64,000 nucleotides of DNA. Source: a marine bacterium AO1-C (lineage in GTDB: Bacteria > Bacteroidota > Bacteroidia > Cytophagales > Microscillaceae). This document shows positions 33,508 through 35,067 of the stretch, in pieces. Location: the NCBI GenBank assembly GCA_001890965.1, contig MLAY01000008.1:488341-552340 (forward strand), given 5' to 3'. Below the pieces are notes generated by a model. The model worked only from the letters and a program-made list of their open reading frames with translations, was not told where the DNA came from and searched no databases. The position numbers and the translations under genes are program-made. Within the stretch, counting starts at the first letter, position 1, and each line of letters opens with the position of its first letter.

Positions 33508-35067
33508 CTAACCATCCCGCCTTTTCACAAAAGTTTTGGTATCTTCATTATAATCATATCCATACTCTTCTGCTAATGATCGATAAGGTCCCACTCCTTC
33601 AATAGCGTCCATTTCATTTCGGAAAAAGCTAGTTCTGAATGCCTGTGGATCACTTAACAAACGTATATCATCTCCTGTTTCGAAAGCAGTCTTGAGCAAG
33701 GGGTAATTATACTTTAACCAAACAACAAACTTACCGATAACTTCTCCCTCTTCTACGATATCATTAATAAACCTGTCTGTCATATAGCGGCCATATTCTG
33801 CTATAATAAGCTGTTTTACATTCGCTACACTTTCGTCTCCAAAACCCAAATCTTTATACACAGATGACAAACCTTCTCTCGCCAGTGCCTTTTGAAACGC
33901 GAGCGCTATGTACTCGTTAATAATCTCATTATATCTCGTTATACATAAAACTTTAATACCTGGAATATTGCTATCATACAGCCTATTCCCTCCTTCAACC
34001 TTCGCAATACTGCCCTCTGGTGCTCCTTTTATATCAAGATTACCATCTTGGAATCCTACAAAATTCCGCGTACCACCAGACCGAGGGTTGTTCCAGTCTT
34101 CGCCAAATTTTCCTAGTATAAGGGTAGATTTGCTATCATCATCAATCACTACGTTTTTCCCGAAACCTGTGTATTTAAAATAGATTTTTCCTCCCATTTT
34201 TGTTGCAAACAATTTTCGGGTGGTATTAGTACCTTCCTCGCTTTGATGATAATAATTGGTAATACCACTATTCCTATCTTCTACCTCAATATTGGGCCTG
34301 GCTTCTAGAAATTCTACCAATCTTTTAATTTTATCATCTGTTTTAGGGATTACTCTACGTTGTATAGGCCCACTGGCGGTTATTGTTTCTTGCTGTCCTA
34401 CATTTTCGGTACTTTGATTCACTTTCCTTTGCAATGGTTGCGCTGCCATTTGATCTACAGTTTGCTCTCGGGTGGTATCTACCGATTGCCCATTGACTAC
34501 TTTGTCGCCCTTAGGCGTGCCGTTTTTGGCATTGTCTATAGCGTGGGCTACTTCGTGTTTTATATTGGCCTCAGTGTCTTTGCCAGGAGCAAAGTCAATT
34601 TTACTGCCTTGAATAGTAGCTTCGGCATTAACAGTATCTGGAAAAGATGAATTATGAGTGGCTTTGAGTTGGGACGTATCTACTCCGTGTTGTTGCCCCA
34701 TAGTAGTGGCTATTTCCTTAAACTTGGCGGAGCCTTGGGGCTGCCCCCCCTTTGTGTGCCCAGCAGTGTTACGTTGCACTGGTCTTTGCCTGGCTTGAAC
34801 CGGCTTTTGTTTGGCCTGGATGGGCCTCTGCTTGGCCTGAATTGGTCTTTGTTTCGCTTGAATAGTTTTTTGCTTCGCCTGAAGTGTACTCTTATTTTGT
34901 GGAGCTGATTGATTATTTTGTTCTTGAACATTGTGGTTCTGATTAGATAAAGCTTTTTGATGCATGTGCGTTTTTAAAATTAGATAATACCTTGAAGTTT
35001 TGTCAGCCTGTGTAAAGAAAGGTGAGCTATCTGGTTTCATATAAAAAAACCTTTTATAATAGATCAT
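33508..35067 (-). CDS. DUF4157-type HExxH (metallopeptidase-like) domain protein with an N-terminal tandem heptapeptide repeat and a C-terminal domain of unknown function; putative toxin/effector-like
   Basis: HGVDTSQLKATHNSSFPDTVNAEATIQGSKIDFAPGKDTEANIKHEVAHAI fits the DUF4157 pattern (G.D.S.V..H...A.A..G..I.F..G...HExxH). LQRK and IQRR motifs follow. The N-terminus has 5-6 repeats of (I/L/V)QAKQ(K/R)P. Confidence 0.6.
   Translation of the reverse strand: MIYYKRFFYMKPDSSPFFTQADKTSRYYLILKTHMHQKALSNQNHNVQEQNNQSAPQNKSTLQAKQKTIQAKQRPIQAKQRPIQAKQKPVQARQRPVQRNTAGHTKGGQPQGSAKFKEIATTMGQQHGVDTSQLKATHNSSFPDTVNAEATIQGSKIDFAPGKDTEANIKHEVAHAIDNAKNGTPKGDKVVNGQSVDTTREQTVDQMAAQPLQRKVNQSTENVGQQETITASGPIQRRVIPKTDDKIKRLVEFLEARPNIEVEDRNSGITNYYHQSEEGTNTTRKLFATKMGGKIYFKYTGFGKNVVIDDDSKSTLILGKFGEDWNNPRSGGTRNFVGFQDGNLDIKGAPEGSIAKVEGGNRLYDSNIPGIKVLCITRYNEIINEYIALAFQKALAREGLSSVYKDLGFGDESVANVKQLIIAEYGRYMTDRFINDIVEEGEVIGKFVVWLKYNYPLLKTAFETGDDIRLLSDPQAFRTSFFRNEMDAIEGVGPYRSLAEEYGYDYNEDTKTFVKRRDG
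34782..34882 (-). repeat. In-frame 21-nt tandem repeat (5-6 units) inside the DUF4157-like gene
   Basis: The + strand shows ttgcctggcttgaac / ttggcctggat / ttggcctgaat / tcgcttgaat / tcgcctgaag periodicity. It encodes LQAKQKTIQAKQRPIQAKQRPIQAKQKPVQARQRPVQ. Confidence 0.6.

What the first reader, a model, noticed from the sequence alone, without database searches (positions are those of the whole stretch)
33508..35067. DUF4157-type HExxH protein with an in-frame 21-nt tandem repeat
The protein matches the DUF4157 pattern (G.D.S....H.....A.A...G..I.F..G......HEVAH) and has LQRK/IQRR motifs. Its N-terminus contains 5-6 near-perfect 21-nt repeats (34782-34882) encoding (I/L/V)QAKQ(K/R)P. Such repeats are prone to slippage and copy-number variation. 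The C-terminal ~250 aa are unassigned and could be a toxin or effector domain, as is often the case for DUF4157 proteins.
Basis: partly seen in the sequence, partly recalled or inferred. Interest (0 to 1): 0.5.

Follow-up and report, generated by a model that had tools for sequence, protein, structure and literature searches.

The report
Orphan eCIS-type toxin cargo gene
This gene most likely encodes a modular toxin that a phage-tail-like injection machine (eCIS) loads and fires: a repeat-rich basic tail, a divergent DUF4157/eCIS_core zinc-motif domain and an uncharacterised swappable toxin domain. That makes it a fairly ordinary new member of a known class.

Summary
The ORF is real. It is the hypothetical protein BKI52_24950 of 'marine bacterium AO1-C' (Microscillaceae). 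The true start is probably M35, giving 33508..34965 on the minus strand and 485 aa.

- **HExxH domain:** It misses Pfam's cut-off for PF13699 (eCIS_core, formerly DUF4157): 17.3 bits against 22. Profile-profile comparison with canonical members gives 98.6% probability, so it is a divergent DUF4157 domain.
- **Repeat:** There are five heptads, (I/L/V)QA(K/R)Q(K/R)(P/T). The peptides are near-perfect, but the DNA units are only 62-81% identical. Four sequences at the same chromosomal locus each carry five heptads, so slippage is unlikely.
- **ΦQ[AR][KR] motif:** It is about 40-fold enriched in the N-terminal regions of 120 relatives, at 0-6 copies.
- **Genomic context of relatives:** In 13 of about 32 assessable loci the relative sits just after eCIS genes (Baseplate_J, AAA, CIS tape measure). 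The 64-kb window has none, so this copy is an orphan.
- **C-terminal 281 aa:** It belongs to an unannotated toxin-domain family of 91 cluster representatives, mostly C-terminal. Several carry canonical eCIS_core, and five are followed by a small immunity-like ORF. The model has pLDDT 93 and no significant PDB match.

Verdict: a new member of a known kind, of moderate interest.

The parts
33508..34965 (-). Most likely coding sequence (485 aa plus stop), identical to NCBI BKI52_24950. The longest ORF extends to 35067 (519 aa), but the extra 34 codons are probably 5' non-coding.
   Evidence: The ortholog has an in-frame stop 12 codons upstream of the MHQ start, and the DNA just before the ATG is conserved.
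34732..34965 (-). N-terminal low-complexity region (aa 35-112 of the 519-aa ORF). Over the aa 35-122 stretch analysed it is 22% Gln, has net charge +14 and one aromatic residue. There is no hydrophobic signal peptide. It is the candidate eCIS loading sequence.
   Evidence: Composition. The analogy is to the disordered N-terminal region of Cgo1/Cgo2, which is required for loading. Its role here is inferred.
34780..34884 (-). Five tandem heptads: LQAKQKT, IQAKQRP, IQAKQRP, IQAKQKP, VQARQRP (21-nt period). A degenerate sixth unit, VQRNTAG, lies at 34759..34779.
   Evidence: Family-wide motif enrichment is shown.
34420..34722 (-). Divergent eCIS_core (DUF4157, PF13699) domain, aa ~116-216.
   Evidence: Pfam sub-threshold hit of 17.3 bits. 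hhalign 98.6% against canonical domains. Family alignment.
34543..34557 (-). HEVAH zinc-binding-type motif (H171, E172, H175). An invariant Glu (E201, in 'TTRE') lies 26 residues downstream and is a possible third ligand.
   Evidence: Invariant columns in 39- and 86-sequence alignments. The ligand role is inferred.
34354..34434 (-). Linker from PLQRK (34423..34434) to PIQRR (34354..34365). Sequence conservation between paralogs collapses right after the second motif, which marks the module boundary.
   Evidence: A ΦQxK-type motif lies 36-50 aa after HExxH in 66 of 120 relatives. The identity drop is visible in alignment A1.
33511..34353 (-). C-terminal effector domain (281 aa), a member of an unannotated polymorphic-toxin C-terminal domain family. 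Predicted alpha/beta fold with a helical insertion.
   Evidence: 91 relatives. (pLDDT 93.2, pTM 0.88). (no significant fold match). (conserved residues).
33431..33472 (-). 15-bp hairpin followed by a U-tract: a terminator-like element between the toxin gene and the downstream MVP gene.
   Evidence: The 83-nt fold containing it has dG -20.7 kcal/mol and z -2.56. The consensus scan missed it because the hairpin lies outside that scan's stem/loop criteria.
34970..34996 (-). Conserved non-coding block directly upstream of the ATG. It is probably the promoter-proximal or 5'UTR region.
   Evidence: Nearly identical in three syntenic genomes.

Best explanation
The gene encodes an orphan cargo/effector for an extracellular contractile injection system (eCIS). 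It has the same three-part build as the AlgoCIS cargos Cgo1/Cgo2 and as many eCIS-associated toxins (EATs).

1. **N-terminal tail.** About 80 aa are basic, Gln/Lys/Pro-rich and presumably disordered. They contain five (I/L/V)QA(K/R)Q(K/R)(P/T) heptads. This tail is the loading sequence by which the eCIS AAA+ ATPase would thread the protein into the tube lumen (inferred).
2. **Middle domain.** A divergent eCIS_core/DUF4157 HExxH domain follows. Its role is accessory or in processing; the biochemical function is unknown even in characterised systems.
3. **Boundary and effector.** A ΦQR(K/R)-marked linker leads to a 281-aa C-terminal effector domain that can be swapped. It belongs to an uncharacterised toxin family that is elsewhere paired with a ~140-aa immunity-like protein.

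The gene sits alone between a subtilase gene and a bacterial major-vault-protein gene, far from any eCIS gene, so it would be recruited in trans.

**Shown here:** domain homology, family architecture, eCIS linkage of relatives, C-terminal domain modularity and swapping.
**Inferred:** loading by the heptad region, toxicity, and the presence of an eCIS in this genome.
For: **DUF4157 homology**
- hhalign gives 98.6% probability and E=5.5e-16 against canonical PF13699 domains.
- 18 of 86 relatives hit PF13699.
- The family's core profile also hits canonical PF13699 proteins P0124 and P0159.

**Polymorphic architecture**
- More than 115 relatives share only aa ~35-240.
- Their C-termini are diverse effector domains: calpain, OTU, C80, M91, HopA1, VirD5, ACTMAP-like, deaminase and Tox-MPTase2. 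The precomputed annotations add Endonuclease_NS_2 and ADP-ribosyl exotoxin.

**eCIS linkage of relatives**
- In 12-13 loci (Aquimarina, Algibacter, Ascidiimonas, Fulvivirga and Bacteroidota MAGs) the relative lies directly downstream of Baseplate_J, a fibre gene, an AAA ATPase and CIS_TMP (E=6e-107).
- Microscilla marina, of the same family, has two eCIS operons in Geller 2021.

**Literature**
- DUF4157 is an eCIS core marker and is N-terminal in many EATs (PMC8213781; PMC11297309).
- Cgo1/Cgo2 have a disordered N-terminal region (required for loading), then DUF4157 (dispensable), then a variable C-terminal domain (bioRxiv 10.64898/2026.05.27.728243; PMC8894135).

**N-terminal region**
- The ΦQ[AR][KR] motif is about 40-fold enriched over shuffles and about 170-fold denser than in the C-terminal regions.

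**C-terminal domain**
- It recurs in 91 cluster representatives, mostly at the C-terminus.
- Three of these carry canonical eCIS_core (P0124, P0132, P0159), and P0121 carries this family's own N-module.
- Immunity-like ORFs follow it in L059-L062 at -8 to +4 nt, and in L063 after 165 nt.

**Swapping at the same locus**
- L007 has the same N-module with an unrelated C-terminal domain.
- L063 comes from a close relative (MVP 93% identical), yet its C-terminal domain is only ~33% identical to the window's.
Against: - No eCIS gene lies in the 64-kb window.
- I could not establish that AO1-C has an eCIS. AO1-C did not show among the top 120 hits of the AAA search, and its genome is not in the searchable collections.
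- None of the Microscillaceae loci of this family lies next to eCIS genes.
- The direct Pfam score is below threshold.
- Sequence homology of the N-terminal region to Cgo1/Cgo2 was not tested, because the last protein search returned nothing.
- No immunity-like ORF follows the window gene.
- The query's sub-branch has lost the family's 96%-conserved Asp (to C/A/S/S) and a 98%-conserved Thr.
- Some proteins carrying this C-terminal domain sit in non-eCIS contexts, for example next to T9SS-type PorP/CHU_C genes in L062.
Confidence: 0.62

Rival explanations
1. It is a polymorphic toxin delivered by a route other than eCIS (T6SS, T9SS-associated surface display, or release on lysis). The conserved N-module would then be a general trafficking or pre-toxin domain, and the eCIS linkage would hold only for the flavobacterial branch.
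For: - All Microscillaceae copies seen are dispersed or in tandem arrays with no eCIS genes within 10 kb.
- The same C-terminal domain occurs on proteins next to PorP/SprF, OmpA and CHU_C genes (L062) and in an orphan toxin/immunity array with Imm74 (L061).
- DUF4157 is also reported in some T6SS effectors (cited in PMC11297309).
Against: - There is no signal peptide or T9SS C-terminal sorting domain in the protein (sequence).
- The specific neighbours in 12-13 loci include CIS_TMP and the eCIS-type AAA ATPase. From my own knowledge of these systems, canonical T6SSs lack both; this was not tested here.
- DUF4157 has an eCIS odds ratio of 2614 in Geller 2021.
Confidence: 0.2
2. It is a decaying or neofunctionalised orphan. 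The C-terminal domain would have lost catalytic activity, which would explain why no immunity gene is needed, and the gene would no longer act as a toxin.
For: - The sub-branch P0001-P0004 has replaced the 96%-conserved Asp of the 'FLD' strand (C/A/S/S), the 98%-conserved Thr, and Arg118 (K/K/H/H).
- There is no downstream immunity-like ORF in the window.
- C-terminal domain identity between orthologs is only 31-47%, against ~95% in the N-module.
Against: - The ORF is intact and the domain models confidently (pLDDT 93).
- Other near-invariant residues are kept: K320, N454, R469, S472, E485.
- P0003, in the same sub-branch and also lacking the Asp, is followed by a 142-aa ORF that weakly matches the immunity-like profile (13.3 bits, single-target E=4e-6). 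This argues that the sub-branch is still toxic.
- Many validated EATs lack immunity genes (PMC8213781).
Confidence: 0.1
3. The HExxH domain is itself the effector, a secreted zinc metalloprotease, and the C-terminal domain is a targeting or substrate-binding module.
For: - H, E and H, plus a downstream Glu, are invariant across 86 relatives.
Against: - In Cgo1, toxicity did not depend on the HExxH motifs, and DUF4157 was dispensable for loading.
- The variable C-termini of relatives are classic catalytic toxin domains.
- The C-terminal domain pairs with immunity-like ORFs on its own, without the HExxH module (L059, L061).
Confidence: 0.05
4. It is a contingency or phase-variable locus. The 21-nt repeat would change copy number by slipped-strand mispairing and so tune the protein.
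For: - The array is in-frame with a 21-nt period.
- Copy number differs (0-6) among family members.
Against: - The units are only 62-81% identical.
- All four sequences at the syntenic locus keep five heptads.
- A 21-nt unit cannot shift the reading frame.
Confidence: 0.03

Closest known systems
AlgoCIS cargo proteins Cgo1 (ALPR1_12695) and Cgo2 (ALPR1_12690) of Algoriphagus machipongonensis
   Same: - The three-part build is the same: a low-complexity, disordered-type N-terminal region, then DUF4157/eCIS_core with HExxH, then a variable C-terminal effector domain.
- The size is similar (485 aa against 498 aa for Cgo1).
- Both come from the order Cytophagales.
- Relatives of the window protein occupy the same position after the AAA ATPase and tape-measure genes.
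   Different: - The window gene is not in or near an eCIS operon.
- Its N-terminal region carries a regular heptad array.
- Its DUF4157 domain is a divergent sub-family below Pfam's cut-off.
- Its C-terminal domain is a different, unannotated family.
- Sequence homology to Cgo1/Cgo2 themselves was not tested (one search failed).
eCIS-associated toxins (EATs) with N-terminal DUF4157 (Geller 2021; Danov 2024)
   Same: - DUF4157 is N-terminal and the putative toxin is C-terminal.
- The N-terminus is polar, with low hydrophobicity and few aromatic residues.
- Many EATs have no annotated toxin domain and no immunity gene.
   Different: - 88% of EATs lie within ten genes of the operon. This one does not.
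- Its toxicity is untested.
Polymorphic toxin systems (CdiA-CT, Rhs-CT or MafB type C-terminal domain and immunity cassettes)
   Same: - The N-terminal module is conserved and the C-terminal domain is hypervariable.
- A short boundary motif (ΦQR[KR]) marks the junction.
- The C-terminal domain is swapped at one chromosomal locus.
- Small ORFs are tightly coupled downstream of the C-terminal domain in other genomes.
- Tandem arrays of paralogs occur.
   Different: - The delivery module is the eCIS_core type rather than CDI, Rhs or LXG.
- The window copy has no adjacent immunity candidate.
HAD-superfamily phosphatases and 5'-nucleotidases (fold comparison for the C-terminal domain only)
   Same: - Both have an alpha/beta core with a helical insertion.
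   Different: - The query has no DxD nucleophile motif, and the order of its conserved strands differs.
- Foldseek found nothing significant.
- This is not a membership claim.

Membership tests
Pfam PF13699 eCIS_core (formerly DUF4157) | Score at or above Pfam's gathering threshold (22 bits) | tested here: not met
   The full-length protein gives no hit at E<=1. The fragment aa 112-215 gives 17.3 bits, E=0.0055, covering profile positions 5-77 of 79.
Pfam PF13699 eCIS_core (formerly DUF4157) | Homology to canonical members by profile methods | tested here: met
   hhalign of the family core (A5) against four domains that pass PF13699 gives probability 98.6% and E=5.5e-16 over 100 columns. The A5 profile hits P0124 (42.6 bits) and P0159 (38.6 bits). 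18 of 86 relatives match PF13699, best E=4.1e-12.
Pfam PF13699 eCIS_core (formerly DUF4157) | Conserved HExxH motif preceded by the G-x-D-x-S...H...A-x-A-x-x-x-G-x-x-I-x-F-x-x-G pattern | tested here: met
   HEVAH lies at aa 171-175. H, E and H are invariant in the 39- and 86-sequence alignments. The pattern aligns column by column.
eCIS cargo / eCIS-associated toxin (Cgo1/Cgo2, EAT class) | Three-part architecture: disordered N-terminal region, DUF4157, variable C-terminal domain | tested here: met
   Disorder was judged from composition only (22% Gln, net charge +14, one aromatic residue); no dedicated disorder predictor was run.
eCIS cargo / eCIS-associated toxin (Cgo1/Cgo2, EAT class) | Encoded in or within about ten genes of an eCIS operon | tested here: not met
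   No eCIS gene lies in the 64-kb window. The feature is met for relatives: 13 of about 32 loci with enough upstream flank lie after Baseplate_J, AAA and CIS_TMP.
eCIS cargo / eCIS-associated toxin (Cgo1/Cgo2, EAT class) | The producer genome encodes an eCIS | not testable with these tools
   The AO1-C genome is not in the searchable collections. The AAA search listed only the top 120 hits, none from AO1-C. Microscilla marina, of the same family, has two operons.
eCIS cargo / eCIS-associated toxin (Cgo1/Cgo2, EAT class) | Physically loaded into the tube lumen and toxic on delivery or expression | not testable with these tools
   Requires particle purification with mass spectrometry, and toxicity assays.
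Polymorphic toxin system | Conserved N-terminal module with unrelated alternative C-terminal domains | tested here: met
   At the same syntenic locus, L007 has an unrelated C-terminal domain.
Polymorphic toxin system | The same C-terminal domain is fused to different N-terminal contexts and sits at the C-terminus | tested here: met
   91 representatives of 55-2540 aa match, 61 of them at E<=1e-10. The domain ends within ~10 aa of the C-terminus in about 41 of 48 well-covered cases. N-terminal partners include canonical eCIS_core and Tox-MPTase4.
Polymorphic toxin system | Cognate immunity gene immediately downstream | tested here: not met
   In the window a 220-nt gap with a terminator-like hairpin precedes the MVP gene, with no ORF in the gap. 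Elsewhere, 134-147 aa ORFs follow at -8 to +4 nt in L059-L062. i059 and i062 are 56% identical, and the others match weakly. L063 has a 142-aa ORF.
HAD-like hydrolase fold (C-terminal domain) | Significant structural match plus the DxD nucleophile motif | tested here: not met
   [not shown]

The most novel reading that the evidence does not exclude
The (I/L/V)QA(K/R)Q(K/R)(P/T) heptads, and more generally the ΦQ[AR][KR] boxes, would be a modular loading tag whose copy number can be tuned and which the eCIS AAA+ loader reads. This would let a dozen or more cargo genes scattered round the chromosome (at least 11 paralogs in AO1-C) be recruited in trans to one or two injection machines. The ΦQR[KR] boxes flanking the HExxH domain would be its self-processing sites, releasing a C-terminal toxin of a new fold that has its own new immunity family.
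Probability: 0.25. Interest if true: 0.6.

Novelty: new member of a known kind. Interest (0 to 1): 0.4.

Why it matters
- **Cargo loading:** How eCIS cargo is loaded is still poorly understood, and published loading sequences are described only as 'disordered, not conserved'. This family offers a sharply defined short motif, repeated up to six times, that could be tested directly as a loading code and reused for engineered delivery.
- **Hidden cargo:** DUF4157-type cargo genes can be invisible to Pfam thresholds and can lie far from the machine. Operon-centred catalogues therefore undercount them.
- **C-terminal domain:** It is a confidently modelled toxin-type domain without annotation. It has no significant match to solved structures and has a candidate immunity partner, which makes it a reasonable target for finding a new toxic activity.

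None of this changes the general picture of eCIS biology.

Tried and rejected
**Searches that returned nothing useful**
- Pfam on the full-length protein and on the C-terminal domain, and NCBIfam: no hits.
- Foldseek against PDB and BFVD: nothing at E<=0.001. The top hits were XisI-like at E~0.2. XisI is an eCIS 'cloud' domain, but the match is not significant.
- afdb50 was not available.
- Rfam on the upstream intergenic region: no match.
- A literature search for 'AO1-C' found nothing relevant.

**Attempts to show an eCIS in AO1-C, all failed**
- Paralogs P0095 and P0041 are not indexed.
- The genome-contig scan returned no AO1-C locus.
- A search with a Fulvivirga eCIS AAA ATPase listed only closer relatives.

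**Attempt to link the family to Cgo1**
- A search with a Cyclobacteriaceae N-module returned no hits at all. This is probably a low-complexity or word-index artefact.

**Other checks**
- The 254-aa gene that follows the ortholog in L003/L006 has a signal peptide, no homolog in the window and no similarity to the immunity-like ORFs, so I rejected it as an immunity gene.
- The slippage/phase-variation idea is rejected on nucleotide divergence of the units and constant copy number in orthologs.
- 'Catalytically dead C-terminal domain' was considered and downgraded, because P0003 of the same sub-branch keeps an immunity-like neighbour.
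Full report
**What is in the sequence**

The window holds an ORF at 33508..35067 on the minus strand (519 codons). Its product is identical over 485 aa to the hypothetical protein BKI52_24950 of 'marine bacterium AO1-C', and its closest relatives come from Microscillaceae.

The true start is most likely M35, the ATG at 34965. The NCBI model and all close relatives start there with MHQ. The ortholog has an in-frame stop 12 codons upstream of that Met. The 30 nt just before the ATG are conserved as non-coding DNA in three genomes.

A 15-bp hairpin with a U-tract lies at 33431..33472, between this gene and the next one. The 83-nt fold containing it has dG -20.7 kcal/mol and z -2.56. 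The gene therefore looks monocistronic.

**The repeat**

TRF reports a 21-nt period at 34784..34863, with 3.8 copies and 71% matches. Parsed in frame, there are five heptads at 34780..34884: LQAKQKT, IQAKQRP, IQAKQRP, IQAKQKP and VQARQRP. A degenerate VQRNTAG follows.

- The peptides are near-perfect, but the DNA is not. Unit pairs share 13-17 of 21 bases. The two units that encode IQAKQRP differ at six bases.
- Selection therefore keeps the peptide, and the array is a poor substrate for slippage.
- All four sequences at the same chromosomal locus have exactly five heptads: the window, P0002/L006, P0003/L063 and P0005/L007.
- Across 120 relatives the ΦQ[AR][KR] box occurs 238 times in the region before the HExxH domain. 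Shuffles give 5.8 +/- 2.6. Only 6 copies occur in 44,170 residues of C-terminal sequence.
- Copy number ranges from 0 to 6, and 24 proteins have heptad-spaced runs of three or more.
- The query's N-terminal region (the aa 35-122 stretch analysed) is 22% Gln, has net charge +14 and one aromatic residue, and has no hydrophobic signal peptide.

**The HExxH domain**

Pfam gives nothing for the whole protein. A 104-aa fragment gives a sub-threshold hit to PF13699, now called eCIS_core and formerly DUF4157: 17.3 bits against a 22-bit cut-off, covering profile positions 5-77 of 79.

Indirect evidence settles the homology:

- 18 of 86 relatives match PF13699, best E=4.1e-12.
- The family's core profile hits proteins that carry a canonical PF13699 domain: P0124 at 42.6 bits and P0159 at 38.6 bits.
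- hhalign of the family core against four canonical domains gives 98.6% probability and E=5.5e-16 over 100 columns.
- H171, E172, H175 and a downstream Glu (E201) are invariant.

This is a divergent DUF4157 sub-family that Pfam's threshold misses.

**Architecture of the family**

Only P0001-P0004 match the query along its full length. More than 115 other hits share only aa ~35-240. Their C-termini are unrelated and include calpain, OTU, Peptidase_C80, M91, HopA1, VirD5, ACTMAP-like, deaminase and Tox-MPTase2. The precomputed annotations add Endonuclease_NS_2 and ADP-ribosyl exotoxin.

Between paralogs the N-module is ~95% identical, while the C-terminal domain is 31-47% identical. Conservation collapses right after the GP(I/V)QR(R/K) motif. 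A ΦQxK-type motif lies 36-50 residues after HExxH in 66 of 120 members. AO1-C itself has at least 11 paralogs, five of them within locus tags BKI52_15345-15420.

**Link to contractile injection systems**

A scan of species-representative genomes with the core profile returned 53 loci. Clustering their neighbours and annotating the recurrent ones gave a clear pattern. In 12-13 loci the family member lies directly downstream of four kinds of gene:

- a Baseplate_J protein;
- a fibre protein (Gp10_C/Collar);
- an AAA ATPase;
- a contractile-injection-system tape measure protein (CIS_TMP, E=6e-107).

These loci come from Aquimarina species, Algibacter, Ascidiimonas, Fulvivirga and Bacteroidota MAGs. 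By my count that is 13 of about 32 loci with enough upstream sequence to judge.

The position and the build match published eCIS cargo:

- DUF4157 is an eCIS core marker found at the N-terminus of many eCIS-associated toxins (PMC8213781; PMC11297309).
- In AlgoCIS, Cgo1 and Cgo2 have a disordered N-terminal region, then DUF4157, then a variable C-terminal domain.
- They fill the tube lumen (PMC8894135).
- They need the N-terminal region for loading, but not DUF4157 (bioRxiv 10.64898/2026.05.27.728243).

Microscilla marina, of the same family as AO1-C, has two eCIS operons in Geller's tables.

**Context of this copy**

The 64-kb window has no eCIS gene. The immediate neighbours are a subtilase (35670..37337, divergent) and a bacterial major vault protein homolog (30714..33287, downstream). 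DnaJ-domain proteins, proline dehydrogenase, FabF and RNase III lie around them. Further out are a caspase-domain protein, an ADP-ribosylglycohydrolase, a PhoD with a T9SS tail and four PcfJ-like paralogs.

The S8-toxin-MVP arrangement is conserved in the four genomes or strains compared (the window, L006, L007 and L063), but the toxin slot is variable:

| Locus | Relation to window | C-terminal domain | Gene between toxin and MVP |
|---|---|---|---|
| window (AO1-C) | this sequence | this family | none |
| L006 (UBA11690) | syntenic MAG | same family, 47% identical | 254-aa signal-peptide protein |
| L063 | close relative; MVP 93% identical | same family, ~33% identical | 142-aa ORF |
| L007 | syntenic MAG | unrelated to this family | none |

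 This is C-terminal displacement at one locus, the hallmark of polymorphic toxins.

I could not show that AO1-C has an eCIS. None of the Microscillaceae copies I saw is next to one.

**The C-terminal domain**

A profile of the four full-length relatives was searched against 1.84 billion representatives. It found 91 proteins at E<=1e-3, of which 61 scored E<=1e-10.

- The matched proteins are 55-2540 aa long. By my count the domain ends within ~10 residues of the C-terminus in about 41 of 48 well-covered cases.
- P0124, P0132 and P0159 carry canonical eCIS_core. P0121 carries this very N-module. P0139 carries Tox-MPTase4.
- No Pfam or NCBIfam model covers the domain, and the sources call these proteins hypothetical.
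- With a 36-sequence alignment AlphaFold2 gives pLDDT 93.2 and pTM 0.88. The model has a small beta-sheet subdomain, then an alpha/beta core with a long helical insertion.
- Foldseek finds nothing significant in PDB or BFVD.
- Near-invariant polar residues in the wider family are D (of 'GGD'), TT, K, T, R, D (of 'FLD'), N, D, R, S and E.
- The query's sub-branch keeps K320, N454, R469, S472 and E485. It has replaced the 96%-conserved 'FLD' Asp (C/A/S/S) and the 98%-conserved Thr.

**Immunity-like partners**

In four unrelated contigs the gene carrying this C-terminal domain is followed, at -8 to +4 nt, by a 134-147-aa ORF (L059-L062). Two of these ORFs are 56% identical, and the others match weakly. 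L061 is an orphan toxin/immunity array that also contains Imm74.

The 142-aa ORF after P0003 scores 13.3 bits against their profile, with single-target E=4e-6. The window has no such ORF and no homolog of one. Many validated eCIS toxins also lack immunity genes.

**Interpretation**

The best reading (confidence 0.62) is an orphan eCIS cargo/effector:

- The basic heptad-bearing tail is the loading sequence.
- The divergent DUF4157 domain is an accessory or processing module.
- The ΦQR[KR] boxes mark the module boundary.
- The C-terminal domain is the swappable toxin.

Domain homology, modularity, eCIS linkage of relatives and C-terminal swapping are shown here. Loading by the heptads, toxicity and the presence of an eCIS in AO1-C are inferred.

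The rival readings are:

- delivery by another route (0.2);
- a decaying or neofunctionalised orphan (0.1);
- the HExxH protease as the real effector (0.05);
- a slippage-driven contingency locus (0.03).

**Novelty**

This is a new member of a known kind. DUF4157-bearing eCIS toxins with unannotated C-termini are common: 983 of 1,130 predicted ones have no other annotated domain. The less ordinary points are the sharply defined repeated N-terminal motif, the sub-threshold DUF4157 branch expanded and scattered in Microscillaceae, and a confidently modelled toxin-type domain with no significant match to solved structures and a candidate immunity family.

Noticed in passing
window 30714..33287 (-): An 857-aa bacterial homolog of the eukaryotic Major Vault Protein (MVP_shoulder E=5e-31, Vault_3, Band_7/SPFH) lies directly downstream of the toxin gene. 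The S8-toxin-MVP order is conserved in the four genomes or strains compared (the window, L006, L007, L063). MVP is 93% identical in L063.
   Followed up: partly
window 35145..35234 (-), and 34970..34996 (-): A ~90-nt non-coding block lies 180-270 nt upstream of the toxin ATG. It is almost invariant in three genomes whose toxin proteins have diverged to 62% identity or less over their full length. It contains a CAGG-N6-CCTG hairpin with a variable loop, and the palindrome GTTTTTAAAAAC. It is not found upstream of other paralogs and has no Rfam match. It may be a locus-specific regulatory element or a 5' leader.
   Followed up: partly
L007 9469..11142; L063 6001..8130; L006 8054..10553: The same chromosomal slot holds four different contents: the same N-module with an unrelated C-terminal domain (L007); a 33%-identical C-terminal domain plus a 142-aa immunity-like ORF (L063); a 47%-identical C-terminal domain plus a 254-aa signal-peptide protein (L006); and the window version with nothing downstream.
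   Followed up: yes
L059 10809..11252; L062 12494..12925; L061 6831..7241; L060 15278..15682: A small (134-147 aa), unannotated protein family is encoded immediately after genes that carry this C-terminal domain. It is a candidate new immunity family. i059 and i062 are 56% identical. There is no Pfam hit.
   Followed up: partly
L032 9674..11329: A Cyclobacteriaceae member of the family has a different N-terminal repeat of ~12-13 aa, of the type xQ(M/L)KQLQQLG(E/Q)SSP. Repeat-rich N-terminal regions therefore seem general in the family, but their sequence is lineage-specific.
   Followed up: no
L001 10001..17879; L053 and L057: Tandem arrays of three to four N-module paralogs with different C-termini (one is a calpain-type Peptidase_C2) occur in a Microscillaceae MAG. 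No eCIS genes lie within 10 kb.
   Followed up: partly
window 15491..18919 (+) and 20052..21059 (+): A 1142-aa protein has an N-terminal caspase domain (Peptidase_C14, E=3e-22) and DUF7379. An ADP-ribosylglycohydrolase (E=2e-67) lies nearby.
   Followed up: no
window 56285..62805 (-): Four consecutive paralogous genes (421-512 aa) each carry a C-terminal PcfJ-like domain.
   Followed up: no
window 48621..50849 (+): A PhoD-like phosphatase carries a T9SS C-terminal sorting domain (Por_Secre_tail). The organism therefore uses type IX secretion.
   Followed up: no
window 28440..29727 (+): Two adjacent small DnaJ-domain proteins (265 and 156 aa) lie next to the MVP gene. The UBA11690 ortholog locus has only one.
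   Followed up: no
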